From NCBI GenBank assembly GCA_000091205.1, contig AP006497.2: a stretch of 64,000 nucleotides of DNA. One strand, written 5' to 3'. The notes beneath the pieces were generated by a model. The model ran no database searches and had not been told where the DNA came from. It saw only the letters and a program-made list of their open reading frames with translations. The position numbers were made by a program, and so were the translations under genes. The number at the start of each line of letters is the position of its first letter. Within the stretch, counting starts at the first letter, position 1. This DNA comes from Cyanidioschyzon merolae (lineage: Eukaryota). Positions 4,857 to 61,200 of this stretch are shown here, piece by piece.

Positions 4857-6266
4857 ATGCGTGCGCTTTGGCAGAGACTCGCACGAGCGCCGAGAGAGTT
4901 GTGGCTCATCTACTTGTTGAAACTACTCTCTTCCTATGCATACTTCAGTCTCTCGTTAGCGCTCGTCCTCTACCTGTCAGAGACGCTCGGCTACGATGAC
5001 GAAACTGCAGGTCTACTGTACGGGCTCTACGGGGTCGTTGCCAGCGCGTACGGCCTTGCGAGTGGCTGGCTCATCGATCGTCTGGGAGCACGTCGATCGT
5101 TGCTTTTCGGTGCAGCGCTGGGCACGCTTGGGCGCACTGCTTTGGCGGTGCTTTCGCAACGCCTCGTGGTGACAACGCTGCTGGTCACGGTGCTTCCGTT
5201 CGCCGAGTGTCTTGGGGTGCCTGTGCTAACAATATGCATCAAGCGGTATACGAGTGGCAAAGACGGTACTCGCACAGTGGCGTACTCGTTGTTCTACACG
5301 GTCATGAACGTTGCAGCGCTCTTGGCCGGGCCTGCCGTGGACCTCTGCCACCGATTCTGGGACTTGCGCGCCCTCTTCTGGACCTGTGCGCTCGCCAGCG
5401 CGGCCATGTTCGGTATCATCCTCCTGGGCGTCCGTGAAATCGAAGTCGACGCAGAAGGCCGAACTCGTGATTTTGTTTCACCGTTTGCGGGAGAGACGGT
5501 TTTGGAATCCCTGCGGCGCCTGGCCGTGGACCAGCGCTTCTGGCGCCTGCTCGTTTTCACGACGCTCATTGTGGGTGTTCGACTCATTTTCCGGCACCTG
5601 GACGCAACATTACCCAAGTATATGACTCGAGTGTTCGGTGAAAGTGCCCCATTCGGACTATTCTATGCAATTAATCCATTCATGATCATCACTCTGGTGC
5701 CGGTTCTTGGCGTTTACACCAGTCATATCGATCATTTCCAGATGATCCTATACGGATCATTTCTTTCGGGATTCTCGGTGTTTTGGATGATGCTCGGTGA
5801 TCGGTACTGGACGGTGGCTTTGTTCATCATGACGCTGTCTCTGGGCGAAGCGGTGTACTCGCCGCGGGTGTACGATTACACAATGGCAATCGCTGCGCGT
5901 GGTAGCGAGGGCACCTACACCTCGTTGGCGAGCCTGCCACTATTCGGCGTACAGTTTTTCACTGGCTGGATGAGCGGCACCTTGCTGCAGCGATATTGTC
6001 CTGCGAGCCCGGCCAGCGCTCGGCAGCCTCGAAAAATGTGGTTCATTATCGCGTTGGCAACCGCTTGGTCCCCACTAGGAATGTGGTTTGCTCGCAACTG
6101 GCTACGAACGGACGTTGCGTCGCGAAAGGCGACCGCATCCGCGGACGCATCACCGGCGAATGCCAATGTCGAGTACGCAACGACAGTTGAGGCCCCGGAT
6201 GCCGAACAAATGACGAAGCGAGCTGTACCCGAAGACAGCATTAGCCAAAGCGTATCAATTGAATAA
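4857..6266 (+). CDS. Major facilitator superfamily (MFS) transporter
   Basis: 469-aa ORF with about 12 hydrophobic helices. The N-terminal half (LIYLLKLLSSYAYFSLSLALVLYLSETLGY...GLYGVVASAYGLASGWLIDRLGARRSLLFGAALG) shows the MFS TM1-loop-TM2 architecture with a D-R-x-G-R-R-like motif. A hydrophilic C-terminal tail follows. Confidence 0.7.
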   Translation: MRALWQRLARAPRELWLIYLLKLLSSYAYFSLSLALVLYLSETLGYDDETAGLLYGLYGVVASAYGLASGWLIDRLGARRSLLFGAALGTLGRTALAVLSQRLVVTTLLVTVLPFAECLGVPVLTICIKRYTSGKDGTRTVAYSLFYTVMNVAALLAGPAVDLCHRFWDLRALFWTCALASAAMFGIILLGVREIEVDAEGRTRDFVSPFAGETVLESLRRLAVDQRFWRLLVFTTLIVGVRLIFRHLDATLPKYMTRVFGESAPFGLFYAINPFMIITLVPVLGVYTSHIDHFQMILYGSFLSGFSVFWMMLGDRYWTVALFIMTLSLGEAVYSPRVYDYTMAIAARGSEGTYTSLASLPLFGVQFFTGWMSGTLLQRYCPASPASARQPRKMWFIIALATAWSPLGMWFARNWLRTDVASRKATASADASPANANVEYATTVEAPDAEQMTKRAVPEDSISQSVSIE

Positions 6267-10924: not shown

Positions 10925-11200
10925 CTACGAGGCAAGAATATCCAGCTGTGCGTTTTACGACCATATGGGAGTGGCGGCTTTGCAGCAACTGCGGGGAGAC
11001 GTTCCCTTTTTTCCTCCAGTTACTGTGTGACGCAAGCATACCATGCCGTGCTTGCTAAGATCATGCGGGAGCGGCGGCTTTTCCAGCAACTGCCCCTAGA
11101 TGCTTTCCTTTTTCCGAAGTTGCTAGGACGCAAGCACATCATGCCGCTTTTTCTATGATCATGAGTGAGCAGTGGCTTTTTGTAGAGCACGGTATGCACT
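10925..11200. repeat. Degenerate tandem repeat, unit about 100 bp, about 2.5 copies, in a convergent 3' intergenic region
   Basis: Segments gggagtggcggctttgcagcaactgcgggga...gacgcaagcataccatgccgtgcttgctaagatcatgc and gggagcggcggcttttccagcaactgcccct...gacgcaagcacatcatgccgctttttctatgatcatgag are aligned in tandem. A third partial unit, tgagcagtggctttttgtagagcacggtatgcac, follows. Confidence 0.5.
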
Positions 11201-11555
11201 CCAGAACCGCATCAAGACAACCTGTGTCGATGTGATCGCCTCGATGACGCACTCTTGACGCATGGACGCACAATTCAGAGGGTATCCCTGAGAGACACCA
11301 GTGTCAGCTGCTCAAGTCGACGAGCATAGCATGGTGCTCGTCGTTTGCTGTCGCACACGTCACCGCATCAACAAGATTGGTGCAATCCTGCAACCCGGCG
11401 ATGCTGTGTTTAAACAATAGCCGACCGAAGCACCTCCAGGCCGCGAGGTGAACGCATCCATTTGCTCAGCAGACGCGAATCTCGATTCACCATCATCACG
11501 CGCTGGTGAACCGCGCGACCGCATGATCAGGCATTCACGAAAGAAGCTTTAACGA

Positions 11556-12815
11556 TCAGGCGGCCTTTTTCTTGGCTGCGTCTATTTTCTTCTGATCCAT
11601 ATGCTTCGCATACGAATAGATGAGGGTACCACCGACGGCGAGCGCCACACCGAGCCAATTAAGCGGGCGCATGATCGTACCAAATGCGATAACACTGGAT
11701 AATATGATAGCTAAACGCTTCACGACGTTACCAATCGAGAATGTCAATGGCGAAACATCCTCCAGTACGCCATACGATGCTTCGTTGTACAAGTGATAGA
11801 GCAGACTCGCCACTGCGATGTAGCCGAACACAGTGCCAGCGCCGATTCCCGGAATGCGGGACGCGACTTTCGGTAAACCTTCAAAGAGCAACGCCATGGG
11901 CAGCTCCAAGAAGAAGCTTATGATTGTGATCAGACCGTAGGTGTTGAAGGCGGTCAAGCTGGCGTCCTTCTTGGTGTCGCCGAGACTCACCTTGGAGGTT
12001 ACGTTTCGAGCGACAAACGCAAAGTTGCTCGCCATCGCGTTCAGGAAACCAGCCATCGTAAACGTTAACTCGCTGATGGATGAGAGTGCAACCCCAACGA
12101 TAATGGGAATCATGGCAAAGTACACCATGGGCGAGTAGTACTCGTGGAGAAAGAGCGCGGAACCCAGTGCACCGACCACTGGTTCCGCCGACTTCACCGT
12201 GTGCGTGAAGGAAATCGCTACCGACGAGAAAGATAAACAACTTGTCGCATGGCCTATGGTGTGGAAGAGAGACGGCAGAATTAGAGAGCGAATGAGCTTT
12301 CCGTTCACCTGCGGACGCCGGCGCAATCCCAGCAGCCACAGCACACTCACGTAGAGCGCTCCGACGCCAAGTTGTATCGTCGATAGAACCCAAGGATACG
12401 ACCACATATTCAACGTCTTCTTGTTCACGATATTAAAAACGACATTATACAGGTACCACATGAAGAACCAAAAACCGACTTTCAAGCGCTTTCGGCTAAG
12501 GCCAAGAAACACGGGTTTCGTCTGCGCGTCACCCGCGCTTGCCGGCATCGGTGACGACGGCGATGATGCGCTCTCCACCGCACAGCACAGCGCGCGACGT
12601 GAAACACCCACAGAGTGCACTGGAGCGGAGACGGCAGCACCGACTCGGGCCGGTCTCTTGGGGAGCACAACACCCCCGCAGCGAAACGCCGGCGAACCTT
12701 GAGACGCTAACCCAGACGCAGCGTGATGCACACGACTGCGCTGCAGCGTCCCCGTACCTCCGGGATGGACAAAGCTCAAACGCGTAGTGATGCACGCCGC
12801 ACGCATGGCTAGCAC
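11556..12815 (-). CDS. Triose-phosphate/phosphate translocator family (plastidic phosphate translocator-like, DMT superfamily) with an N-terminal extension
   Basis: The TPT core is strong: FWFFMWYLYNVVFNIVNKKTLN...SFTHTVKSAEPVV...LYHLYNEASYGVLEDVSPLTFSIGNVVKRL, with two halves of about 5 TM helices each and a C-terminal KKKAA tail. About 100 aa N-terminal to the first TM segment is S/A/R-rich with few acidic residues, which looks like a presequence. An alternative start is the Met at MPASAGD. Confidence 0.85.
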   Translation of the reverse strand: MLAMRAACITTRLSFVHPGGTGTLQRSRVHHAASGLASQGSPAFRCGGVVLPKRPARVGAAVSAPVHSVGVSRRALCCAVESASSPSSPMPASAGDAQTKPVFLGLSRKRLKVGFWFFMWYLYNVVFNIVNKKTLNMWSYPWVLSTIQLGVGALYVSVLWLLGLRRRPQVNGKLIRSLILPSLFHTIGHATSCLSFSSVAISFTHTVKSAEPVVGALGSALFLHEYYSPMVYFAMIPIIVGVALSSISELTFTMAGFLNAMASNFAFVARNVTSKVSLGDTKKDASLTAFNTYGLITIISFFLELPMALLFEGLPKVASRIPGIGAGTVFGYIAVASLLYHLYNEASYGVLEDVSPLTFSIGNVVKRLAIILSSVIAFGTIMRPLNWLGVALAVGGTLIYSYAKHMDQKKIDAAKKKAA

Positions 12816-14141
12816 TGCTTCAGAAACGTACGAACAGACCAGGAGAGATACCCAGGAACAGCAACTTCAGTTTCAAGTACGATCGTTTGCACGGCGTGCG
12901 CAACGACAGGTGCGGCGTCGATGATCGCGCCCTGGGGCGTCTGTGGCGGGCGGGGCGCCTCGCACTGCGCCAGCGCACATCGCGATGCCGCACCTGCACG
13001 CATGGGCCGTACAACATAGTATAAATATGGAAGTATGTAGACGCGTGATGTGTCGCTGGGCGGCGGGTACGCCACAGCCCAGCGCAGCACACAACATATC
13101 TGGTCAGTGCGGCGACACGGGTGCGCGTACGCATTACTCGAAGCGCTCGCGGTGTCGGTATGTTCGATATTCACGAGCGGACGCTGCTCCCGGGAGAGTC
13201 GAGATCTGGGTCGGCCGGGGCGTATCGAGTGCGCCAAAGCCGCCACTGGATGCTCGAGTACGACCACCAGAGGTATCGTATGTGCCGCAGCTTGTACATT
13301 GGCGCACCACCAGAAATTGCAATCCGTACCAGAACCCTGACAAATCCTTGTTGAGTCTACCAGCGGCTATTTCTTATCCGCTCTTTCCCTATAGATACCA
13401 GGCATAGTATCCCGTACGTCTCCATCTCATCTTTCCCTATAGATACCAAGCACAGCATCTTGTATATGTCCATCTCATCCTTCCCTATAGATACCAAGCA
13501 TAGTATCCCGAATATGTCCATCTCATCCTTCCCTATAGATACCAGGCATAGTATCCCGTACGTCTCCATCTCATCTTTCCCTATAGATACCAAGCACAGC
13601 ATCATGTATATGTCCATCTCATCCTTCCCTATAGATACCAAGCATAGTATCCCGAATATCTCCATCTCATCCTTCCCTATAGATACCAAGCACAGCATCT
13701 TGTATATGTCCATCCCATCCTTCCCTATAGATACCAAGCACAGCATCATGTATATGTCCATCTCATCCTTCCCTATAGATACCAAGCACAGCATCTTGTA
13801 TATGCCCATCTCATCCTTCCCTATAGATACCAAGCACAGCATCTTGTATATGCCCATCTCATCCTTCCCTATAGATACCAAGCACAGCATCTTGTATATG
13901 TCCATCCCATCCTTCCCTATAGATACCAAGCACAGCATCTTGTATATGCCCATCTCATCCTTCCCTATAGATACCAAGCATAGTATCCCGAATATCTCCA
14001 TCATCGACATAGCAGCGTCAGCGCTATGGACACCGTGCCTCCGCTGCGTCGATGGAAACGCGCGGCCGACGGCGCATCGGCCGGAGTACGCACCTCAGAC
14101 GCGTCAACTGAACAGCTCGCTGCTGGCTGCGGTATGCGTTT
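12816..14141. promoter_or_regulatory. Divergent (head-to-head) intergenic region between the TPT and family-A DNA polymerase genes. It contains the 48-bp minisatellite.
   Basis: The region is flanked by the start codons of two oppositely oriented genes at 12815 (minus) and 14142 (plus). No coding signature apart from the repeat-maintained ORFs. Confidence 0.4.
13378..14005. repeat. Minisatellite: 48-bp unit, about 13 tandem copies, in two alternating variants
   Basis: The unit tccatctcatccttccctatagataccaagcacagcatcttgtatatg is repeated head to tail. It alternates with a variant ending ...caagcatagtatcccgaatat(g/c)tc and a caggcatagtatcccgtacgtc form. The period is divisible by 3, so ORFs persist through it on both strands. 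Confidence 0.9.
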
Positions 14142-16988
14142 ATGCGCTGCGCTGCGTCGTTTCAGAGACCCGCAGAGAGCTACCATGATCTGCAGCCTAC
14201 GCTGACATTGCGAACGGAGTGCAACCAACGCAGTTCCCCGGTGAAGCGTCTTGAAACGCGTCCAGTTATCATGCGGTTAGGCGTAGGGTCTTGCCGGTTG
14301 TGGCTGGGCGCATTCGTGTACGCACTGCGTCCCGCTCTGCGAAGAGACGGAAACGTTTGGCAGCAGTGGCGCCGGGCACATGCCCTCGTGCCTGCTGTGC
14401 CTCGACGACGCTGGCTGTGTGCGAACGCCCGCCGTTCGGCTGCTAGTACCTGGGACGAGGAAACGGACGTGGTTGGTGACGAGTTCAGCTCCGTGAACCT
14501 GGTACAGGCGAGCGCGGCAAAGATAACCGAAGGCGACGAGTTCACCGCCCAGCGACTGCAGTTGCTGAACGCGCCTGAGCGCGAGAGCGCTGCCGCCACG
14601 CTCGAAAGGTCACCGCCGCCTGGTGTAACCGTCGTGCGCAACCGCGCAAGTGCGTTGCGCGTGATTGATCGGCTTTGGCAACTTCAGAAAGAGTCGGAGC
14701 TTCTTTACGGACGTCGGGCTGCTTCGGTGCCGAGGCGATGGCGTCTCATAACGGAGGGTTGTACCCACTCGAATGGCAACGGTGTGCTCCACGAGGACAA
14801 CACGCTCCAGTGCAAGCGTCTGTATCCACCGACCGCAGCGGACTGGATGGAGCACTCGCAGTGTTATCACGCTTGGGATACGGAAACCATTGGCATTGAT
14901 CCGACAGAGGACTCCCCTGTTGGGAAAGGTCAGGTGATCTGTCTCTCGGCGTTCTGTGGGCCGCGTGTAGACTTTGGGAATGGACCCCGCCTTTGGATCG
15001 ACAATTTTGGCGACGCACAAGGTACGCTGGACTATTTCAAGTCTTATTTCGAAAATGAGGAAATTCCCAAAGTTTGGCATAACTACAGCTTCGACCGAGC
15101 GGTCCTTTATAACCACGGCATCGACTGTCGAGGATTCGGCGGCGATACCATGCACATGAGCCGACTATTGGACGCAGCGAGACTGCGTTACTCTCTGGAG
15201 GCGCTCACGGAAGACTTTCTGCTGCGGAAGAAACGCAGCATGCGGGAGCTGTTCGGTCGGCCTCGTATTTTGAAAAATGGAAAACCAGGCAAGGAGATTA
15301 TCGTACCGTCCACCAGCGAACTCCAGATGGACCCTGAGACCATGTACCACTGGGTGCAGTATAGCACCTATGATGCCGAGGCAACCTGGTATCTGCGCGA
15401 TAAATTTGAGCGTCTGCTTCGTGAACAGGAGATCCTCGGCTCGGAGCGAACCATGTATGACCTTTATACGGAATGTTTCGTTCCTTTTGGTGCGGTCTTA
15501 ACCGATATGGAACGCATCGGCTTCAAGATTGATATTGCGCGACTCCAAGATGCGCAACGTGTAGCCGAAGCCGACCGCCAACGTTACACTGCAATGTTTC
15601 GAGAATGGGCAGCGCGCTACTGTGCTGATGCAATCCACATGAATGCCGAGTCGGAGAATCAAAAGCGCCAATTCTTTTTCGCCCCGGTCCGGAACAAGAA
15701 AACCGATGAATTGTTGCCAGCAGAGCGCACTTTCGAGGTCGAGAACACGGAACAGGTCGTGGAGTCCGCGGGGAAGAAGCCCCGCAAGAAGCGAACCATA
15801 CAAATATCCGGTCTCGGGCTGCCGCCCGTGGCGTTCACTGCAAGCGGTTGGCCGGCTTGCACGGCGGTGGTGCTGCGGAAACTGGCGGGCACGCCGAGCG
15901 CGAGTCCCGCCCAGGGCGGGCTCCTGTATGACTTTCTCACCAAAGAGCGACGGGAGAGCGCGGAGGATGCGCTTGCGGCGTGCAAAGCCGTTGAGGCGCT
16001 ACTTGAGGCTGGTGCAGTCGGCACCCTGCTCGACAGTTTCATCGATCCGCTGCAGAAGATGGTGGATAAGAACCATCGCATTCATGCGTCGCTCAACTTG
16101 AACACGGAAACAGGTCGGTTGTCGTCGCGGCGGCCGAATCTGCAAAATCAACCCGCTCTAGAGAAAGATCGCTATCGTGTTCGGGATGCTTTCACTTGCG
16201 AGGAGGGCAATACGCTGATTGTAGCGGACTATGGCCAACTCGAGCTGCGATTACTTGCGCATATCGCCAACTGCCGCAGCATGATTGAGGCGTTTAAGGC
16301 TGGTGGCGACTTTCATTCGCGCACGGCGAGCAGCATGTACCCGTACATCGCAGAATCCGTTGCCCGCGGCGACGTGCTTCTTGAACCCGAGCCCAATGCC
16401 AACGGACAGGCCACTTCGTCGAAGCCGCTGCTCAAGGATGTATACGCAGGGGAGCGACGTCGGGCCAAAACACTCAATTTTTCAATCGCATACGGGAAAA
16501 CGCCAGCTGGGCTGGCGCGAGACTGGGGCACCAGCCTGAAAGAAGCTCGCGAGACCGTAGATGCTTGGTACCGGGATCGACCCGAGGTTCGTGCCTGGCA
16601 GGAGCGCGCTATTAAGTTCGCGCAAACCCATGGATTCGTGAAAACGCTGCTGGGTCGACGGCGGCCTCTGCCGGAGATCAACTCCCCGAATACGAATGCG
16701 GCTCGCCATGCGGAACGTGCAGCGATTAACACCCCTCTCCAAGGTAGCGCAGCCGATGTTGTTATGAAAGCCATGCTGCTCATTCATAGCAACGCACGTT
16801 TGGCTGAACTTGGCTGGCGAATGATCCTCCAGGTCCACGATGAGATCATCCTCGAGGGGCCCGAAGAAACAGTCGAAGAAGCGGAAGCAATTGTCGTTCG
16901 GCTTATGCGTCAACCGTTCCGTGAACCGCTGCGCGTTGACCTCGCTGTTTCGGTCGCTCACGCGAAGACGTGGTTTCGTGCAAAGTAA
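14142..16988 (+). CDS. Organellar-type family-A DNA polymerase (Pol I-like, POP-like) with a 3'-5' exonuclease domain and an N-terminal targeting-like extension
   Basis: Exo motifs: YHAWDTETIGIDP (Exo I, DxE) and YSTYDAEATWYL (Exo II). Polymerase motifs: DYGQLELRLLAHIA (motif A), RRRAKTLNFSIAYGKT (motif B) and QVHDEIILEGPEE (motif C). The N-terminal ~100 aa is R-rich and acid-poor (MRLGVGSCRLWLGAFVYALRPALRR...), consistent with an organelle presequence. Confidence 0.85.
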   Translation: MRCAASFQRPAESYHDLQPTLTLRTECNQRSSPVKRLETRPVIMRLGVGSCRLWLGAFVYALRPALRRDGNVWQQWRRAHALVPAVPRRRWLCANARRSAASTWDEETDVVGDEFSSVNLVQASAAKITEGDEFTAQRLQLLNAPERESAAATLERSPPPGVTVVRNRASALRVIDRLWQLQKESELLYGRRAASVPRRWRLITEGCTHSNGNGVLHEDNTLQCKRLYPPTAADWMEHSQCYHAWDTETIGIDPTEDSPVGKGQVICLSAFCGPRVDFGNGPRLWIDNFGDAQGTLDYFKSYFENEEIPKVWHNYSFDRAVLYNHGIDCRGFGGDTMHMSRLLDAARLRYSLEALTEDFLLRKKRSMRELFGRPRILKNGKPGKEIIVPSTSELQMDPETMYHWVQYSTYDAEATWYLRDKFERLLREQEILGSERTMYDLYTECFVPFGAVLTDMERIGFKIDIARLQDAQRVAEADRQRYTAMFREWAARYCADAIHMNAESENQKRQFFFAPVRNKKTDELLPAERTFEVENTEQVVESAGKKPRKKRTIQISGLGLPPVAFTASGWPACTAVVLRKLAGTPSASPAQGGLLYDFLTKERRESAEDALAACKAVEALLEAGAVGTLLDSFIDPLQKMVDKNHRIHASLNLNTETGRLSSRRPNLQNQPALEKDRYRVRDAFTCEEGNTLIVADYGQLELRLLAHIANCRSMIEAFKAGGDFHSRTASSMYPYIAESVARGDVLLEPEPNANGQATSSKPLLKDVYAGERRRAKTLNFSIAYGKTPAGLARDWGTSLKEARETVDAWYRDRPEVRAWQERAIKFAQTHGFVKTLLGRRRPLPEINSPNTNAARHAERAAINTPLQGSAADVVMKAMLLIHSNARLAELGWRMILQVHDEIILEGPEETVEEAEAIVVRLMRQPFREPLRVDLAVSVAHAKTWFRAK

Positions 16989-27456: not shown

Positions 27457-27495
<39 letters not shown>

Positions 27496-33135: not shown

Positions 33136-36100
33136 TCCTAAAGCATGAGCCGGTAGGTTTGCAGGCACGAGCGCTCTTGCCGCAGCCGCAAAGCGATAGC
33201 GGTATTCGCAATCGCGTACAAGGTTCGTGTGGTGACGCCAGACCGGCGTCGCTTGTCGTTGCCGCACATCCCTGCTGCAACGACAAGTCCGTACAATGAC
33301 GCAGATATTTTGGTTTGAAAGAATGTTTATATGGACTATGGATATCCAGATTGCGGGGCGGGTATTGGCTTCTGGGCAAGCGTCCATTAAACTGGACCCT
33401 ACCTCCAAGTTCCATAACTTGTACTTTCTTTCGGATGCACTGATCGGTTCGAACGTTCTATCAGACGCCGAGTACCCGCATTGAGCTCCTGTCTTTGCGC
33501 TTCTACCGTTGGAGTCGATGCATCCCGAAGACAGAGCGACTTTACCATACCACTGAAGGGCGTCGGCTCGAGATGTCGTGTACCCGACGCCAGGTCGTAT
33601 CTCGTTGTATGTTCGTGCTTGGAGAGACTGTGCAACAGGCCTGCTTTCGCGGCCTTTCGCGTTAGCGCAACCTAGCTCATACAAAGAATTCTGAATACCG
33701 AGTCACCGACTCGCAGTATTGTGTCGAATACGTCGTCGGTTCGTGTAGCGGGCCTGTGCTCGGCAAACACCGGTAATGAGTGCACGAATCGACGAACCCG
33801 CGCGCTCATCTGGTTTGCCGGACCCCCGTCCTGATATGTAGAAGGAGAGTTTCGTATCCACTAGTGAGTGATGTCGTTCGTATAAAGCGATGTCAGGTGC
33901 CAGGGCTGCACGCGATGTGAACGAGCGCCCTTATCAACTACATGTACATGTAGAGGATGCAGTCACGCACGGAGATCGCTTCGTTCCTGCTGCCAGCTTG
34001 GACAGCGTAAGCATAAACCTGTCAGAATGACGGCAGTTGCGTTCCAGCAGCAGGTTCACTGTGGTCCCCAGTGAATATCTAGTGTTTCGACACGGTATAG
34101 AGCCGAGGCTAACCACATCCCACGGATCCGCTCTTTGGTGCACGAATGAGTCCCTCTGGTACGAGCCGCGGACTTGAGCCTGCAGGCATGCTCACAAATT
34201 TTGAGACATTCATGTCATTCCACTTTCTTCTCAATGCTCGTATCAGCATAGAATTCTCGTCATATACGAGACCCCGGATACTGTAATCTTTATTTCGCAT
34301 TAGGGCGTTTGTGTTCCGGGATGAAACTGAAGGTTTGTTGTCTCTGCGCTATGATTTGCATTTTCTGTCGCGCGATGAAACGGTGCAAGTCGTTGACTTC
34401 TTCTGACTCTGGTCTTCGACAGCTCCGGAATGTTGCGGCACTCGTTGTCGTGATTGTTCCATGTGGTGCCTCATCTGGGAGCGTCTTCCCGGCATCCTCC
34501 ACGCTCTCAGTGCAGCACGCTGTCGATCGGAGAAGTATATGACCTTCTTTCAGTTTCGTTCGTTTCTTCATTGGTGATGGCCCTCGTCGTTATCACTTTC
34601 AAGTTCGTATGTCGACTTGCGCAACGAGTACACGCTTTCGACGTCCGGCATTCGCAGATGTCCACCACACGCACATGCAGTATTTCTGTAAACTTCTGTG
34701 TGGTCGCTTTCTATGCGCTGCATTTACGACGGGATATCGGACGCATGGCTACTGCACCCCAGTTTACGAACCAGATGACCGTCTTTTCGCCACTCGGCAT
34801 CAGAGGAGAATGCAGATCGCCTAGATTGCATTCTGGTCAAACGAGTGACGCAGAGCACCTCAGCTGCTGGTCTCCAGAACGAGCTCTGTGTTTCAGTTAT
34901 TCAGGGAGAACGCTCAAATTCGCTCGCATATGAGTATTGTCGCCTGAAATCGTCTTTTCGCAAATGGTGAGACGAGCAGTACCATCCTCTGTCTGTTGCC
35001 TCTCTTTTTGTGTTTTCTTCGCGCTGTAAACGAACCTCGCCTGGTGGTCCTCTCTTCTGCTGCTGGAATGACGCGTCTCTGACTCCGGACTAGAGTCTGA
35101 AAAGGTAAATTCGACGTCTGAAAAACCCGGGTCCACGCGTACGAATCTTTGGTTATCTTCCAGAATGCGGAAGACTTTCGTTGTCTCCGTTCTCGCCTAG
35201 AGATATTCGGCGATGCTCGAGGTTGAACCCTGACATCGTACCCGTGCGAGAGAAAACGGAAACAGAATTGACTGTCTATGGCTTCAGCAGCTTTGATATT
35301 GGAGTTTTTCTGGTAAACCTTCCTGTTCGTTGACTTACTCCATTTCATTTCGTTCTTTTCCTACTCATGATTTCATGGTGAGGTGGAGTTCCCATGACAC
35401 CCGAGAAACTGAAAGAAACGTAACCAATTGTGAAGCCAAGCATCCTCGGGCGGGAGAGCGAACGTCTTGGACGGCGTGTACCTCTTCTGCCTTATGAATC
35501 CCGTTCTCGCCAGGTATTCGCAGTGTTGACACCCTCTTCCAACGATTTCGTAGTACAGAGAAAATGCGAAACGTGTCGGAGACGAATGCTTCAGTCAGAG
35601 AGAATCCTTCGAGGGAATTCGTCTCCTCAAGTCTGCCGCGAGCTCGACAGCCAATTTCATCTTCGGTTTTCATTGGCGATCACTTCCGGTGAAATAGGAC
35701 GTCGAACTTTCGAACGATCCGGCGGGTGCCGCACAGACAAGCTCTCTCTCTCTCTCTCGAAACGCCCTCGATTTAGTTACCATGCATCAGCTTGACTTAA
35801 TGAACGACACGAAACCCGATATTCATCAGGACGTGATTCGTTTCTGCCGTCGCCATCGTGATGGGAAGCTCCACGTGCATCTGCGTCATTCCAAAGAGAT
35901 ACGCCTTCATTGACGCTCACTGTTCGTGCCCTTCGGTTTCTTCTTCATTTCGTCCGGGTTACAAAGCACCGAATTCATCAACGCTTAACCTGAGACTCGA
36001 GCTGATACTTTTCCTGCAGTTGTTTCGGTGCCTCTTGAAACAAGCGATGACACAAGCGTAAGAAAGTTCTCATTCAGGGAAGGCAGCACGTTTTTGGGAG

Positions 36101-36764
36101 CGTTGCTCGCCCATGCTCTCGCTTTCTCGCGTGAGCGTCCTCTAGGCGTCTGTCACAAGGGAAACAAACGAGCGTGTGCCTGGCGTCAAAGGTCGCGAAA
36201 GAGAATTCTCAAAAAGTAGCAGTTCGTCAGAGCGTCTGGCTCGCTTTCCACTCCTTTGACGAGGATAGCTTCATAAGGAAGACGGAGGCTTTATCCGTTG
36301 AGGATGACGTTCCTCGAGGAAACAGCTCAGCTTCAAACTTCAGATGCGAAATTTTCCTTGCGTTACTGCTTCCCGTTCTCTCCCCGCGGTTAACTCGGAC
36401 GCTGCATCTCTCCTGCGCACCAGAGGATGCCGTACCCTTATCCAAACAGAATCATTTCGGTGTTCTCGTTGAAAAGCACCTTCGACCGCTGATTCAATAG
36501 AAACCCCCTGAAAGATCCGAAGCACCTCTGTCTTGCACCAGAAGAGACGTCCCTGTTTCAGCGCAGCGCTACGCGATGCACGGGTTGCATCCATCGCGCT
36601 CCGGCGCATGCGCGATCGATAGCGCCCAGTACTCGTGAAGCGTTCAACGCAACGTTCGTTATCCGGCAAGGCAAGGCAAGGCAAGGCCGGTACACTCCAG
36701 AGCACGATACGTGAGTTTTCAATAGAACATACTCCACATCCTTCAGATAGAGGTCAAGAGAAGC

Positions 36765-39748: not shown

Positions 39749-41467
39749 TCAAACGCACTCTTGGCCGAAATCACGCGTAAAGCGCTCGTATGCTCCTAAA
39801 TCTGCTTTGCTGACAGTCGGCTTGGTATGGAGCAGTACTTCTTCGAAATCACTGTAACGGACATCGGGTACGAGCAGCTTGTCGGCTGGGACGTCGTACA
39901 GGTTCATTTCCACTGCTCCTGGTGCCGCCGGAGAGCACGGCGTCCAGAGTAGCTCTGCAGATGCAGTGTTCGTGAACCGAACACCGCGCGCCGCATTGTT
40001 GTTCGAGGATGTATCTTCGGCACCGCCGTCTCTCTGCAGGGTTCGATGGTGTGGACGCGGCGATACTTGTCGGAAATGCGTCGCCATTTGCAGGCGCCGA
40101 ATCGGCTGCATGATTGCATCACGGACAACGATTTCGATATCCGCACCGCTGTAGCCTTCAGTTACATGGGCAAGGCGCTCGAAATCGCAAGCGCTGAGAC
40201 TATGTGGTGTATCTCCGATGTGAATTTCGAACATTCTCCGACGCGAGCGTTCATCTGGAAGTGGAATGTATATCCGGCGCTCGAACCGCCGTCGAATAGC
40301 CGGATCCAGCTGCCATGGCAAATTGGTGGCGCCCAGTACCAAGACGTGCTTTCCCTCCTTACGAGTCTCATCACCAGTTGAAAGGCCTTCTTGCATCTGC
40401 ACCAAGAATTCTGTTTTGATTCTTCGAGTTGAATCAGAGTCAGATTCGGATCTGCTCGAACAGAGCGCATCCACTTCATCAATAAAGATAATAGAGGGTG
40501 CAGACTCGCGCGCCATTCGAAAGAGTTGTCGAATGAGCTTTTCTGATTCACCCTGCCATTTGCTGACCAGATCTGCAGACGACACGCTGAAAAACGATGC
40601 CGCACTTTCTGTGGCAACAGCCTTTGCAAGGTACGACTTACCGGTGCCCGGTGGGCCGTACAGCAGAATACCACGCCACGGTTCTCTCTTACCGGTAAAA
40701 AGCAACGGTAAGCGCATCGGGAGCACAACCGCTTCCTTCAGTGCCTCTTTCGCGCCGTCTAGACCAGCTACATCATTCCAGCGAACCTGGGGGCGTTCGC
40801 GAACGATCACGGACGCCAGTTGCTGGCGCAGGCGCTCGGTCTCGTCTTTGGTTGGAGCCGAGGCGGCGGTACCCGCTTTCTCAGCACCAGCGCCAGAACC
40901 GCCGCTTCCATCAGCAGGCCCTCTACCGCGGCGTCGCTCTCGAGCTGCTGCTGCTGCTGCTGCTGCTGCTGCCCCGTTCGACTCACCCGAGCCGGTGTGC
41001 GGGCTCAGGGTAGCCGCCGCCGTCGCACCTCCGTTTGTGTACGACTCGCTCTCGAAGGGCAACCCGTCCGCACCGTCGTCGCTCCCCGAGGCCTGTTCAT
41101 AGGCGCCACGCTTCAGCAGCTCCTTAATAGATTCAGCACGTGATATGTACTCACGCACACGAGTCTGTAAGAGCACCCGGGTTCTCTCGGACTTTTCCCA
41201 GCGAATCGCGGTCATCAGGTACTCGATAGCACGAAGATAGTAGTGATACGCCGCCTCAAACGTCTCATGGTCCCGTGTTCTCCGCGCCTCTCGATCAGTT
41301 TGAGTCGCTTTATTCGCGAACTCTATTCCTTTGTCCACAAACGAAGTCATTACGCTTGTAACGCGGAAAGCGTCCCCCAGGCTGCAAGCCCAGGCTTTGG
41401 CAGACAAAAACGCACTGTTTTGCCTGGACAGCACCGCGCGCGCACGCAACGCGCACCCGCTGGCCAT
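39749..41467 (-). CDS. VPS4: Vps4-type AAA ATPase (MIT domain plus AAA plus Vps4 C-terminal domain), ESCRT-III disassembly
   Basis: The MIT domain reads [77 protein letters not shown]. Walker A is [21 protein letters not shown]. Walker B is [10 protein letters not shown], then the SRC/arginine-finger region, and the Vps4 C-terminus ...[11 protein letters not shown]. The linker holds an Ala run from (GCT)n. The probable start is the Met at 41353 (MTSFVDKG). Confidence 0.85.
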
Positions 41468-41974: not shown

Positions 41975-42680
41975 TGGCGATTTGCTCATCAGCTTGGTCC
42001 GGATATTCACTGAAGGTGTCGCGTGAAATGATCGATTCCGTTCGGAAGATAAATCTTCCTCTCTTTGTGGCCTTGAATGAAACGATTTTCGACGCTAGTG
42101 TGATATCTTTTATGGGATGCAATCGTGGAGGCTCCGATCTTTACTGTTTGCATGAAAAAGGGTCTTGAACTCGGGCTTGCGTCATTGGAGCGATAGGTTA
42201 CAGTGAAGTGCGCGTCGCAGCGTGTAACGAAGCGAACACAGGCGGATGGAGATTGTCGTATTCCCTTCCAGCTTGGATTCTTCTTTCAGTGTTTGTTTTA
42301 TCATGGACAACAGTGCATGGAAACCATCGATCGATTGGAGCAGCTTGTAAAGCGGCATGTGACGAAGCGAGCACTGGCGAATGGACTTTGGTCGTATTCC
42401 TCTTCAGCTTGGATTCTTCTTTCAGTGTTTGTTTTATCATGGACAACGATTCATGCAAACCATTCATCGAATGGAGTGTCGAGCGCTCATATGGCCGGTA
42501 GCCAGCGCACTCGCCGAAGGGGTCGCCCGGAACAATGCCGTATTCGTACGATACGGCACTGGGTGCATAGACGGTGTAGAGCATCTAGAAGAGCCCTATG
42601 GAGGCCTCAAGAGCATGTACCAAGCTATGAAGCAAGCGCTCACGAGCGACGGGGCGGCTCCTGGAGAAAGAGTTGTGGTG
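41975..42680. repeat. Dispersed repeat, copy A, internally repetitive (137-bp tandem duplication plus an inverted internal motif)
   Basis: The two copies are about 75% identical by eye: 42001-42180 matches the reverse complement of 54780-54960 (catgaaaaagggtcttgaactcgggcttgc against catgaaacagggtcttggagtcggatttgg). Within copy A, cgtattcccttccagcttggattcttctttcagtgtttgttttatcatggacaac is repeated in tandem about 137 bp later. Its reverse complement (atgaagcaagcgctc) recurs at about 42610. Confidence 0.6.
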
Positions 42681-58200: not shown

Positions 58201-61200
58201 GGGTGAGCCGATGCTTGATCCCGTGATCGACAGCAGCTTCGAGCACTGGGACAAGTACCTATTGCAGCAGCAGCAGCAGCAGCAGCAGCAGCGCGCAGTA
58301 GGCTGCGTTCCCGCAGTGGCGTTGCTACGAGCGCTTTTCACTGTTGCTCACGCGGCCCAGGAAGACACCTCCACGCGGAACCGTGCCTTTTTACATGCCG
58401 TCTTCGTCGTCAAAGCATACTTGAACGCTGTCCAGCGGCAAGCAAGGGCAGCAATTGTTGCCTCAAACGGAGATGGACCCTATACTGGAAATGCCTGGAC
58501 AATACCAACATCAAATGCTACGAATGCTGCTGTTGTTACAGCAACCGGTCCCTCTGAATGGCCTGATGGTACAGGCACCGAGCAGGCATCCACGGAAACA
58601 GGCGAGCAAGTCGCTAGCGGCGCTATGTCGTATGCGAGCACCACTGGAACTCAACCGCCTTTCCTGTTTTGGCAGACACCAGTAGCGGCTCAAGTTTGGG
58701 ACTTGTTTGCGCAGTTCGTTCCCATGATGGCCTCTACAGATCACGTCCAAGTCTTGAATGGATGGCGCGGACTCTTCCAACAACTCTTCCTCGCACAGAG
58801 CATAGACGATAAGACCGCGGCGGCGCCAGATGCGGTACAACACGCGTTTCGACCGACACCGCAGGCACCGCTGTTCGCTCCGCTGCTGCAGCTTATCGAA
58901 CAGAGGCGAGATAACGCTCAGTCGGATCGAGTGGACGGGGCTGTGATCTCCAATGCGATATCGCCACTGCGTCTTTTCCGAGAGATTCTGCAGCTCGTCA
59001 TGACGCTGGTTCAGGACTATGGCGAGCTTTTCGTTGCTGACGGCTGGTACGCCGTGCTCACGCTGTGCAAGGAGGCAGTGCTTGCGGGTCACGACCCGCT
59101 GACATTCACATCCGAAACAGATCGCAAGGGTATTCATGATGCCGGTTTTGCCTTGCTGCAACTCTTGGCTAAGGAGTATGCGTCCAGTTTTTTGCACCAA
59201 CCGGCTGCATCAGAAGTTCGAACGCTGTGGCTAGAAACCTTGACATCATGGGCGCTGCATGCCGCTGATGTGAACATGGCGCTCAGCAGCATTGGGATGC
59301 TGTGGAGTCTCTGCGACCTCCTGCAACCGAGCGAATCAACAGATGCCGCGTTATGGTGCCGAGTGCTCTCTACCTTGGCGCGTCTCTGTATAACGGAGCG
59401 CGTCGATGTCCGAAACAGTGCACTGAAGACGTTTCTCGGAACGCTGTTGGCTCATGGCCAAAACCTAGTGGAGCACGACCGCTGGCGAGGGATCTGGGAA
59501 GAGGCGCTCTTGCCGCTCATCGAAGGGCTCTTGGTGCGCTCACCGGCACCCTCGTCGCTGGCTGGTGAAGGTACCGCGCTAGAAGCGCCAGTAGAGGCAA
59601 CATCAACAACCACCGATGCCTCTGCAGAGGCGACAGCGAAGCATGCGCCGGCACGCGCGCTCACCAGCGCTACTACCAACGATGATGGCAATGATAGAAC
59701 CATCGTCAAAGGTGATGCTGTTGTTGGGATGCATCCAGCAAGTGCAAAAGATGCAATCAAGCACTGGAACGCGAGTCGACTGCTTCTCATAGAGGGCCTC
59801 GTGCGACTTATCCAACAATACCTGGTTAGTCGCTGGTTAGCTCTGGAAGCATTTCCGCGCCACTGGGAATCGCTGCTAGACTATTGGGAGCAAACCAGCT
59901 GCCTCTATGACGTCCACAAGAGCCCGCCGTCGAACCAGGAAGCGCTTTTGATCGCACTGGTTGCGTTGTGGCAGACCTCGCTGGAAACGCTGAGCCAGGT
60001 CGTTTGCTGTGAGCCGGCATTGCCCGGCTCCCGATCGTCCAACCAAAGCGCTCGGCAACTCTGGTTGCAGACCTGGCAACGCGCCCAGCGACGGGCTTTT
60101 CTCGCCAACTGCTGGCCGCGTTTCTCTGTGAGCGTCGTCGAGAGCATCGTGCAGGCGTTGTTGTCGCTGTGCGGACGCGTTCAACAGCAGACACCAGATG
60201 TGGATATTCTCGATATCGTGCAGAGCCTGGGATACCAGTGTCTCGAGGCGCTTATCGAGGACACCATAGACCCCAAAGTCGCCAAGGCATCCTCCGCCAC
60301 ACTAGGGATGCAACGGGGCAAACCGGTGCAACGATCCGCACTCGTACGCGACGTTTTCGACGTGCTCGCGCGTTGGCCCGGTGACTCGGTAGGTGTTCAC
60401 CGATGTGCGCATCTGAATGCCCTGCTATCCTTCCTGGAACGTATATGCGGGAGCATTATACGAGCCACGACGGGATCAGCGGCTGGTGTGACCTCCAGCG
60501 ACGAACATTCTGTGATGCTCTGCATTGTCCAGGGCACGCTGGAGCGACTCGTACGCGGAATGCCTCCGAGTGCCACTTGTGCGGCAGAGCAGGAGCAGTT
60601 GGTGCTTCGTTTTCTGGAGCTGCTTGCGAGCATCCTGGTACCGAGGCGTACCTGGAACGGGAGTCTAGTAGCTGCTGTCGTCGACGGGTCGTCCACAGCA
60701 CCAACCGATGCACCAGCAGCATCTGCACAGCAACAGCCGAGCAGCCTGGTGAGCACCAAACATGTCAGCGGTGCGAACGCGTTTGTCGAGAGTGCCGTGT
60801 TCTCGCTTGCTGCCCTGGTTGACAAGCTTGAAGACAACGAGGAGACCAGGGCGCTGCTGACGGATGCGGTGCTTGCACGTATTGCTGCGCTGTGTGAGCG
60901 CTTTCTCTTCGAGCACGACATCCCCCTGCCTGAATCCTTTGACGGTGGCACGCTCCATATGATTCACACTGGTCAACTGGATGAAGAGAAATGCAGCATC
61001 GTGATGTTACAGCTGGGTGCGCGCCTCGGTCTGGTGGACTTGCTCGAGCGTGCACTGGGCCTCGCCCCGGATATCTCGGTGGACGAACACTGGTTTTTAC
61101 TCGTTACGAGCGCCTATCGCTTCAATCTGCGTCTTGCTGCTATAGAGGCTCTGTTTCACGTCGCTGCTGGACTGGATTCTGGGGCGGCACCTGCTTCGCC

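What the first reader, a model, noticed from the sequence alone, without database searches (positions are those of the whole stretch)
13378..14005. 48-bp minisatellite (about 13 copies, two alternating variants) inside the TPT/DNA-polymerase divergent promoter. ORFs are maintained on both strands.
A perfect-period 48-bp array fills half of the 1.3-kb space between two divergently transcribed organelle-related genes. The period is a multiple of 3, so both strands carry long ORFs: 217 aa on the minus strand (...LCLVSIGKDEM...) and 242 aa on the plus strand (...SISSFPIDTKHSI...). The plus-strand ORF continues 60 codons into unique sequence. It could be an inert minisatellite, a repeat-number-variable regulatory element shared by the two promoters, or, less likely, a repeat protein with a 16-residue period.
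Basis: seen in the sequence. Interest (0 to 1): 0.5.

Follow-up and report, generated by a model that had tools for sequence, protein, structure and literature searches.

The report
Hypervariable 48-bp minisatellite between two genes

Summary
Window 13385-14002 is a gap-free 48-bp array of 12.9 units (TRF score 942). The window is Cyanidioschyzon merolae 10D chromosome 15. The array fills 46% of the 1,335-bp spacer between the divergent genes for a plastid phosphate translocator (BAM81610) and the organellar DNA polymerase POP (CMO270C).

There are three unit types, not two. Their order is ABC ABC BBBBBB C.

The array occurs only at this locus. In hot-spring metagenome contigs whose POP gene is 99.7-99.9% identical, unit order, unit variants and apparent copy number all differ. 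Most short-read contigs break inside the array. It is therefore a hypervariable minisatellite (VNTR).

The ORFs on both strands are expected by chance: 58% of shuffled units give an open frame on each strand. Neither ORF is in the reference proteome, and neither has a real family match or a conserved frame.

Two hints keep a regulatory reading open. First, a 16-nt core is invariant in all 86 full units. Second, a sister lineage has an unrelated 72-bp array at the same position upstream of POP. Three other relatives have none.

Verdict: a neutral promoter-region minisatellite (about 0.68), possibly a regulatory VNTR (about 0.2). Interest is low to moderate.

The parts
13385..14002 (.). 48-bp minisatellite array, 12.9 units, no indels
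   Evidence: TRF score 942. 13 in-register copies. It is the lowest-GC 600 bp of the window (42.8%) and has a strong C over G skew on the plus strand.
13385..13672 (.). Higher-order part: units A1 B1 C1 A1 B2 C2 (two 144-bp ABC triplets)
   Evidence: Unit typing. The same A-B-C-A-B start is seen in metagenome contigs L002, L003 and L008.
13673..13960 (.). Run of six B-type units (B3 B2 B4 B4 B3 B4)
   Evidence: This interior is the part that differs most between populations.
13961..14002 (.). Terminal truncated C-type unit (42 nt) joining unique sequence on the POP side
   Evidence: The same terminal unit is present in every contig that reaches the right flank.
13385..13400 (+). First instance of the 16-nt core TTCCCTATAGATACCA, which recurs every 48 bp. 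It contains the palindrome CTATAG and TATA-like strings.
   Evidence: Invariant in all 86 full units of 15 distinct types. All 13 variable positions lie at unit positions 17-48. Permutation p = 0.036. No other copy in the window.
12807..13384 (.). Unique spacer on the TPT side (578 bp, GC about 60%)
   Evidence: Only 2-3 differences in 578 bp between the window and the spanning contigs.
14003..14141 (.). Unique 139 bp between the array and the POP start codon. This is probably where the POP core promoter and 5' UTR lie (inference).
   Evidence: 0 differences in 139 bp in the spanning contigs. The array carries 11 ATGs on the plus strand and 40 on the minus strand, so it is unlikely to be part of either 5' UTR (inference).
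11556..12806 (-). Flanking gene: plastid phosphate translocator (TPT family), BAM81610, 'probable glucose 6 phosphate/phosphate translocator'
   Evidence: Exact match in the protein collection. Pfam PF03151.
14142..16988 (+). Flanking gene: plant/protist organellar DNA polymerase POP, BAM81611 = CMO270C
   Evidence: Exact match. PF01612 + PF00476. Gene identifier and dual plastid/mitochondrion targeting from PMC3914683.
13357..14010 (-). 217-aa repeat ORF, judged a by-product of the 48-bp period
13460..14188 (+). 242-aa repeat ORF, judged a by-product. It overlaps the POP start in another frame.

Best explanation
This is a locus-specific, non-coding, hypervariable minisatellite (VNTR) in the shared 5' spacer between two divergently oriented nuclear genes of Cyanidioschyzon merolae chromosome 15: the plastid phosphate translocator and POP/CMO270C.

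A 48-bp unit was amplified and is continually reshuffled by replication slippage, unequal sister-chromatid or homologue exchange, and gene conversion (inferred mechanism). This produced three unit types, a 144-bp higher-order ABC block and a homogenised B run.

Because 48 is a multiple of 3, any unit frame without a stop codon becomes a long ORF. The two ORFs are therefore artefacts. The array most likely lies upstream of both transcription start sites and has no required function. Any effect on POP or translocator expression would be incidental.
For: Shown:
- The array is real and gap-free.
- The window is C. merolae 10D. The two flanking proteins have consecutive accessions (BAM81610, BAM81611), and neither repeat ORF is in a collection that holds the reference proteome.
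- The array is locus-specific. There is no other core copy in 64 kb. In a scan of 241 million metagenome records, 5 of 6 hits are this same locus and 1 is a lone chance match. No flanking inverted repeats.
- The array is hypervariable. Contigs whose POP gene differs by 2-9 nt in 2,847 and whose spacer flanks differ by 0-3 nt carry different unit orders and unit variants absent from 10D (B5-B10, A2, C3). Spanning contigs show 6, 6 and 3 units, and partial arrays show at least 10-11. One sample yields 6 left-end plus 10 right-end units. About 20 contigs end inside the array.
- ORFs are as chance predicts. The consensus unit has 3 of 6 frames open, against a shuffle mean of 2.2, and 58% of shuffles have an open frame on each strand.
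- There is no convincing purifying selection: 9-14 of 16 unit differences are non-synonymous, including S>P and L>P. Pfam hits have no significant individual stretch.
- No Rfam match and no single-strand structure (z = 0.3-0.4).
- The array is absent upstream of POP in three other cyanidiophyte relatives.

Inferred: the mutational mechanism, and the position of the array relative to the transcription start sites.
Against: - A 16-nt core is invariant in all units of all populations, while 13 of the other 32 positions vary (p = 0.036). This could reflect constraint rather than recent homogenisation.
- A sister lineage (L051, POP 73% identical, same gene order) has a different 72-bp x 3.1 array ending 3-20 bp before the POP ORF. 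This is unlikely by chance given about one such array per 64 kb here (rough p of 0.01-0.05).
- The two units share GATACC(A/C)AGCA in the same orientation.
- The unit shows a three-base GC periodicity (3/6/11 of 16, p = 0.019) and a mild synonymous excess in plus frame 0 (7 of 16 against 20% expected, uncorrected p = 0.028).
- Copy numbers from short-read contigs are lower bounds, because 144-bp loops can collapse in assembly.
Confidence: 0.68

Rival explanations
1. Regulatory promoter VNTR. Each unit carries a binding site (the invariant core TTCCCTATAGATACCA, possibly the sub-motif GATACC(A/C)AGCA) for a transcription factor, or it excludes nucleosomes. Unit number would then tune expression of POP and/or the translocator, and selection would keep an array at this position.
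For: - Position in a divergent 5' spacer, ending 139 bp before the POP ATG.
- Invariant core against a variable remainder.
- An independent 72-bp array at the equivalent place in lineage L051, with a shared 11-mer in the same orientation.
- Lowest-GC 600 bp of the window, with TATA-like strings in every unit.
Against: - No array upstream of POP in L053, L054 or Cyanidium caldarium.
- Unit number appears to range from 3 to at least 15 among near-identical genomes, which argues against tight constraint.
- Unit similarity between the two arrays is not significant (shuffle p = 0.11).
- The core occurs nowhere else in 64 kb of promoters.
- No expression or binding data are available.
Confidence: 0.2
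2. Local recombination or replication hotspot. The POP promoter region would be a conserved site of double-strand breaks or fork stalling that repeatedly generates and destabilises tandem arrays. The arrays themselves are neutral, but their recurrence at this site in two lineages would be mechanistic and not chance. This refines the best explanation and is not exclusive of it.
For: - Two unrelated arrays at the same position in two lineages.
- Extreme structural turnover against almost invariant flanks.
- From general knowledge, minisatellite instability in humans and yeast is driven by adjacent meiotic hotspots, which in yeast lie in promoters. A sexual cycle has been reported for Cyanidiophyceae (PMC13353863).
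Against: - Only two lineages show arrays and three lack them.
- No recombination data exist for this locus.
- No obvious polarity is visible. Both array ends are conserved and the interior varies.
Confidence: 0.07
3. Gene for a protein with a 16-residue repeat, on either strand: ...LCLVSIGKDEM... or ...SISSFPIDTKHSI...
For: - Long ORFs of 217 and 242 aa.
- Mild synonymous excess in plus frame 0 (p = 0.028 uncorrected).
- GC3-like periodicity.
- Prokaryotic gene callers predict ORFs here in the metagenomes.
Against: - Openness is as expected by chance.
- The ORFs begin and end with the array and have no unique domain.
- Neither is in the reference proteome.
- Pfam hits are repeat-summed with 0 significant stretches.
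- Non-conservative replacements occur between units.
- GC1 of 19% and GC2 of 38% are unlike real genes here (53-64% and 47%).
- The motif shared with L051 is read in a different frame on both strands.
- No counterpart exists in three relatives.
Confidence: 0.03
4. Chromosomal element such as the chromosome-15 centromere or a replication origin, marked by the local drop in GC.
For: - The 13-14 kb bin is the lowest-GC kilobase block of the window at 48.4%.
- Published C. merolae centromeres are low-GC regions averaging 48.4%, one per chromosome, with no shared sequence (Kanesaki et al. 2015, as cited in bioRxiv 10.1101/096016).
Against: - The centromeres are described as 2-3 kb. Here only 0.6 kb is low-GC, and the surrounding 3 kb is 52.9% with 60% GC flanks.
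- Another stretch of the window (33.7-36.8 kb; ORF-poor; 49.4% GC over 34074-36073) fits that description better.
- The prior is low: one centromere in 903 kb.
- Population variants with only 3-6 units exist.
Confidence: 0.02

Closest known systems
Classical hypervariable minisatellites / VNTRs with interspersed variant repeats (e.g. human MS32, MS205, as analysed by MVR mapping)
   Same: The unit length falls within 10-100 bp and the array is head-to-tail with no indels. Several unit variants are interspersed in allele-specific orders. Array structure changes much faster than the flanking DNA. The locus is single and non-coding.
   Different: The host is a 16.5-Mb, repeat-poor, nearly intron-less red-algal genome. 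The unit is AT-richer than its surroundings, whereas the classical human units are GC-rich. True allele lengths have not been measured, since only short-read contigs were available. No polarity of variation is evident.
Promoter tandem repeats that modulate expression (yeast promoter repeats of Vinces et al. 2009; human INS and HRAS1 minisatellites, MAOA uVNTR). Cited from my own knowledge.
   Same: A variable-number tandem array sits a short distance upstream of a gene start, in a nucleosome-unfriendly, relatively AT-rich context. A conserved core lies within each unit.
   Different: No effect on expression has been shown, no binding factor is known, and the transcription start sites are unknown here.
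72-bp x 3.1 array upstream of POP in an uncultured sister cyanidiophyte (L051 5761-5980, JGI 3300051397)
   Same: Same gene order (EVE - TPT - spacer - POP - kinase - PGM). The array abuts the POP 5' end. The period is a multiple of 3, with open frames on both strands. It shares the 11-mer GATACC(A/C)AGCA in the same orientation.
   Different: The unit is otherwise unrelated (shuffle p = 0.11). There are only about 3 copies at 97% identity. The spacer is 2.3 kb and also holds a bacterial-type PF03601 ORF pair.

Membership tests
Minisatellite / VNTR | Head-to-tail tandem array with a unit of roughly 10-100 bp | tested here: met
   48 bp x 12.9, 0% indels, TRF score 942. In-register copies.
Minisatellite / VNTR | Array length and/or internal structure polymorphic among individuals of one species | tested here: met
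   Different unit orders and private unit variants occur in contigs with 99.7-99.9% identical POP. Apparent unit counts are 3, 6, at least 10, at least 11 and 13. Exact lengths are uncertain because short-read assembly can collapse the array.
Minisatellite / VNTR | Single locus, not a dispersed or transposon-borne repeat | tested here: met
   No other copy in the window. The metagenome scan returns only this locus plus one chance hit. No flanking inverted repeats. The rest of the 10D genome was not available to scan.
Expression-modulating promoter VNTR | Lies in the promoter, upstream of the transcription start site | tested here: inconclusive
   The array lies in the 5' spacer of both genes, 139 bp from the POP ATG and 578 bp from the translocator ATG. 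Start sites are unknown. The many ATGs in the array argue against a 5' UTR location (inference).
Expression-modulating promoter VNTR | Unit number changes the transcription of the neighbouring gene | not testable with these tools
   Needs reporter or edited strains, or expression data from strains with different alleles.
Expression-modulating promoter VNTR | Units carry a conserved factor-binding core | tested here: inconclusive
   The 16-nt core is invariant in 86 units (p = 0.036). An 11-mer is shared with the L051 array. No factor is known, and the motif is absent from the other promoters in the window.
Tandem-repeat protein gene | More open reading frame than chance allows, with unique start and end regions | tested here: not met
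   3 of 6 frames are open against 2.2 expected. 58% of shuffles are open on both strands. The minus ORF extends only 8 nt and 28 nt beyond the array.
Tandem-repeat protein gene | Purifying selection on the encoded repeat | tested here: inconclusive
   Synonymous/non-synonymous counts are 7/9 in plus frame 0 (p = 0.028 uncorrected, transition bias not modelled), 2/14 in plus frame 2 and 4/12 in the minus frame.
Tandem-repeat protein gene | Annotated product or homologues in relatives | tested here: not met
   Not in a collection that contains both flanking reference proteins. Only repeat-summed Pfam noise. No array in three relatives, and a different frame in L051.
C. merolae regional centromere | 2-3 kb of relatively low GC (about 48%) | tested here: not met
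   The low-GC tract is 0.6 kb. The lowest-GC 3-kb span that includes it (11005-14004) is 52.9% GC, only the fourth-lowest 3-kb span of the window.
C. merolae regional centromere | CENH3 occupancy | not testable with these tools
   The paper holding the chromosome-15 coordinates is not in the library.

The most novel reading that the evidence does not exclude
A tandem array immediately upstream of the organellar DNA polymerase gene POP is a selected, positionally conserved cis-regulatory device in the Cyanidioschyzon lineage. Multimerised binding sites built around GATACC(A/C)AGCA / TTCCCTATAGATACCA would set POP (and perhaps translocator) expression by their number. Natural copy-number variation would then tune organelle-genome replication capacity between hot-spring populations.
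Probability: 0.12. Interest if true: 0.55.

Novelty: new member of a known kind. Interest (0 to 1): 0.28.

Why it matters
- C. merolae is a model alga prized for an almost repeat-free, fully finished genome. A single-locus array that differs between genomes 99.7-99.9% identical elsewhere would make a ready PCR or long-read marker for typing strains and wild Cyanidioschyzon populations, and for following crosses now that a sexual cycle is described.
- The array explains a recurrent assembly break at this locus in hot-spring metagenomes.
- It warns that prokaryotic gene callers predict spurious repeat 'proteins' here.
- If unit number did affect POP expression, it would link a hypermutable nuclear element to the control of organelle-genome replication. 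Nothing yet shows that it does.

Tried and rejected
- **Coding repeat protein:** rejected on the frame-openness null, absence from the reference proteome, Pfam noise, the substitution pattern, and the frame mismatch with L051.
- **Dispersed or transposon-borne repeat:** rejected. A viral-contig scan with the 16-mer gave 17 single, unrelated chance hits.
- **Structured RNA or hairpin-forming DNA:** no Rfam match, and ssDNA folding is no better than shuffles.
- **Homology between the 48-bp and 72-bp units, or between the two spacers:** not significant.
- **Centromere:** poor fit on size and GC. The coordinates paper and the 2008 centromere note are not held, and the condensin paper gives only chromosome 2.
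- **Exact look-ups:** POP from either candidate start codon (948 and 905 aa) and the GTG-start (419-aa) translocator found nothing on record. The 416-aa translocator worked.
- **Literature:** searches for a described minisatellite, tandem repeat or transcription start data at this locus found nothing relevant. The 10D resequencing note does not mention this array.
- **Not run:** a homology search with the repeat ORFs, judged not worth the cost because it would return mainly the same locus's mechanical ORF calls.

Full report
**1. Observation**

Tandem Repeats Finder reports one strong array in the window: 13385-14002, period 48, 12.9 copies, 90% matches, no indels, score 942. Printing the sequence in register shows 13 units at exact 48-bp spacing. 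The last unit is truncated after 42 nt. A 20-mer from the unit occurs 13 times, against 0.00 expected in dinucleotide-preserving shuffles.

The array is the lowest-GC 600 bp of the 64-kb window (42.8% against about 56%). It is strongly C-rich on the plus strand, with GC skew near -0.5.

One part of the description needs correcting. There are three unit types, not two:
- A: ...AGGCATAGTATCCCGTACGTCTCC...
- B: ...AAGCACAGCATCTTGTATATGTCC...
- C: ...AAGCATAGTATCCCGAATATSTCC...

They are ordered A B C A B C B B B B B B C. This is a 144-bp higher-order doublet followed by a homogenised B run.

**2. Where it is**

Exact look-up identifies the flanking proteins as BAM81610 and BAM81611 of Cyanidioschyzon merolae 10D:
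- BAM81610 is a 'probable glucose 6 phosphate/phosphate translocator' of the TPT family (11556-12806, minus strand).
- BAM81611 is the 'plant organellar DNA polymerase' (14142-16988, plus strand).

Both lie on a 902,900-bp record. I take this to be chromosome 15. The POP identifier carries the same CMO prefix as CMO228C, which a resequencing note places on chromosome 15. [quoted passage not shown]

The two accessions are consecutive. Neither repeat ORF is present in a protein collection that does contain both neighbours. The reference annotation therefore places no gene in the 1,335-bp spacer. The array fills 46% of that spacer. It begins 578 bp from the translocator ATG and ends 139 bp before the POP ATG.

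**3. Is it one locus or a family?**

It is one locus:
- No further copy of the core exists in the window, even with two or three mismatches allowed.
- A scan of the metagenome collection for TTCCCTATAGATACCARGCA returned six stretches. Five are this same locus and one is an unrelated single match.
- A viral-contig scan gave only isolated chance hits.
- No inverted repeats flank the array.

It is therefore not a dispersed or transposon-borne repeat, as far as the available data reach.

**4. Population evidence**

Look-ups of the translocator and of POP variants fetched about 25 hot-spring metagenome contigs of the same species. Their POP genes differ from the window by 2-9 nt in 2,847. The unique spacer flanks differ by 0-3 nt in 717. 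The arrays, by contrast, differ a great deal:

| Contig(s) | Coverage of array | Unit order |
|---|---|---|
| L001 | spanning | A1 B5 C2 B6 B4 Cz |
| L011 | spanning | A2 B7 C3 B6 B4 Cz |
| L012 | spanning | A1 B5 Cz |
| L014 | partial, POP side (11 units) | ends ...B6 B1 C2 B6 B4 Cz |
| L015, L024, L032 | partial, POP side (L015 has 10 units) | end ...B6 B4 B8 B9 B10 B1 Cz |
| 10D (the window) | complete | ends ...B4 B4 B3 B4 Cz |

- Nine of the fifteen distinct units are absent from 10D.
- One sample gives 6 units from the left end (L002) and 10 from the right end (L015). This implies up to about 16 units if the two do not overlap.
- Most contigs simply stop inside the array, which is the usual signature of an unresolved repeat.

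Caveat: de Bruijn assemblies with k of at most 141 can skip 144-bp loops. Counts from spanning contigs are therefore lower bounds. L008 shows A1 B5 C2 followed by another A, so L001 may be collapsed. The private unit variants and the different neighbour orders cannot be produced by collapse. The conclusion of rapid structural turnover therefore stands.

**5. Coding test**

- *Frame openness.* The consensus unit has 3 of 6 frames free of stops. Shuffled units of the same composition average 2.2 open frames, and 58% have at least one open frame on each strand. Because the period is divisible by 3, every open unit frame automatically becomes a long ORF.
- *ORF boundaries.* The minus ORF starts 8 nt outside the array and stops 28 nt past it. 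The plus ORF runs on only because the adjoining sequence is GC-rich.
- *Family matches.* Pfam gives only repeat-summed scores with no significant individual stretch.
- *Substitution pattern.* Of 16 unit differences, 9 are non-synonymous in plus frame 0, 14 in plus frame 2 and 12 in the minus frame. They include S>P and L>P.

Two oddities remain:
- Plus frame 0 has more synonymous differences than a uniform model predicts (7 of 16 against 20%, uncorrected p = 0.028, transition bias not modelled).
- The unit shows a three-base GC periodicity of 3, 6 and 11 of 16 (p = 0.019).

However, GC1 of 19% and GC2 of 38% are unlike real genes here (53-64% and about 47%). The statistics rest on a single 48-nt unit. 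I put the coding reading at about 3%.

**6. Other functional signals**

There is no Rfam match at permissive thresholds and no tRNA. Three units folded as single-stranded DNA are no more stable than shuffles on either strand.

The array holds 11 ATGs on the plus strand and 40 on the minus strand. Inclusion in either 5' UTR would create many upstream ORFs. I infer that both transcription start sites lie outside it.

**7. Hints of constraint**

All 13 variable unit positions fall at positions 17-48. The 16-nt core TTCCCTATAGATACCA is identical in all 86 full units of 15 types. The spacing is always 48, so no divergent core was missed. Placing 13 variable sites at random gives an invariant run this long in 3.6% of trials. 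This is suggestive, but it is also what recent homogenisation could leave.

**8. Relatives**

A search with POP gave four more distant cyanidiophyte homologues whose contigs could be read:

| Locus | POP identity | Gene order | Array upstream of POP |
|---|---|---|---|
| L051 (JGI 3300051397) | 73% | EVE - TPT - spacer - POP - kinase - PGM, as here | 72-bp x 3.1 array, 97% identical, at 5761-5980 |
| L053 | 72% | partial contig; kinase downstream | none |
| L054 | 66% | partial contig; kinase downstream | none |
| L052 (Cyanidium caldarium) | 63% | kinase and PGM downstream; translocator not adjacent | none |

In L051, the array ends 3-20 bp before the first ATGs of the POP ORF. It would end about 150 bp before the start if the start equivalent to that of 10D is used. 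That unit and that spacer show no significant similarity to the C. merolae ones (shuffle p = 0.11).

The best local match is GATACCAAGCA against GATACCCAGCA. It overlaps the invariant core and has the same orientation relative to POP. It is read in different frames in the two lineages' ORFs on both strands, which again argues against a conserved protein.

With about one array of at least 3 copies per 64 kb in this window, a second array right at the POP 5' end is unexpected (rough p of 0.01-0.05). But only one of four relatives shows it. Independent origin at a recombination-prone promoter, shared ancestry with complete sequence turnover, and selection for an array all remain open.

**9. Centromere idea**

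C. merolae centromeres are described as 2-3 kb of relatively low GC, averaging 48.4%, with no common sequence. The 13-14 kb bin happens to be 48.4% GC. But the low-GC tract is only 0.6 kb, and the best 3-kb span that includes it is 52.9%. A different stretch fits better: 33.7-36.8 kb is ORF-poor, and 34074-36073 is 49.4% GC. I consider this reading unlikely, at about 2%.

**10. Verdict**

This is a genuine, locus-specific, non-coding and hypervariable minisatellite in a divergent promoter spacer. It is most likely neutral, generated and reshuffled by slippage and unequal exchange (mechanism inferred). A regulatory VNTR remains possible at about 0.2.

It is a new member of a well-known kind. 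I found no description of it in the searchable literature. Its practical value is as a strain and population marker, and as an explanation for assembly breaks and spurious ORF calls at this locus.

Noticed in passing
window 33685-36764: A 3.1-kb stretch with no ORF of 160 aa or more. It holds the lowest-GC 2-3 kb of the window (49.4% over 34074-36073) and has no tRNA or Rfam hit. It fits the published description of C. merolae centromeres (2-3 kb, about 48% GC) better than the minisatellite does, but it may simply be a long spacer or hold an unrecognised gene.
   Followed up: partly
window 42227-42476: A 136-bp x 1.8 tandem duplication (87% matches, 2% indels) in another relatively low-GC intergenic stretch (41.5-43.5 kb, 50.8% GC).
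   Followed up: no
L051 5761-5980: A sister cyanidiophyte lineage (POP 73% identical, same gene order) has an unrelated 72-bp x 3.1 array abutting the POP ORF. It also has open frames on both strands, and it shares GATACC(A/C)AGCA with the C. merolae unit in the same orientation.
   Followed up: yes
L051 4387-5192 (minus strand): Two adjacent ORFs (161 and 91 aa), the first matching PF03601 (a bacterial-type conserved membrane protein family), lie inside the TPT-POP spacer of the sister lineage. This may be a horizontally acquired gene or its split remnant. It is absent from the C. merolae spacer.
   Followed up: no
window 27458-27494, 40944-40972, 58264-58292: Perfect trinucleotide microsatellites: (GCA)12, (GCT)9.7 and (GCA)9.7. 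All three coincide with long ORFs.
   Followed up: no
window 12809-13267 (minus strand); L001 9508-9987: A 152-159-aa ORF ending at the translocator start codon is called as a gene in nearly every metagenome contig. It is not in the reference annotation and has no family match. It is probably a GC-rich chance ORF picked up by a prokaryotic gene caller.
   Followed up: partly
window 13385-14002 (unit phase): The 48-bp unit has a three-base GC periodicity (3, 6 and 11 GC of 16 by phase; permutation p = 0.019). Plus frame 0 and the open minus frame share the same third positions. The pattern does not resemble local genes and remains unexplained. The unit may have arisen from a fragment of old coding sequence.
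   Followed up: partly
L001-L027 (contig ends): About 20 independent metagenome contigs from JGI, ENA and Logan terminate inside this array, from either side. It is a systematic assembly breakpoint for Cyanidioschyzon in hot-spring metagenomes.
   Followed up: yes
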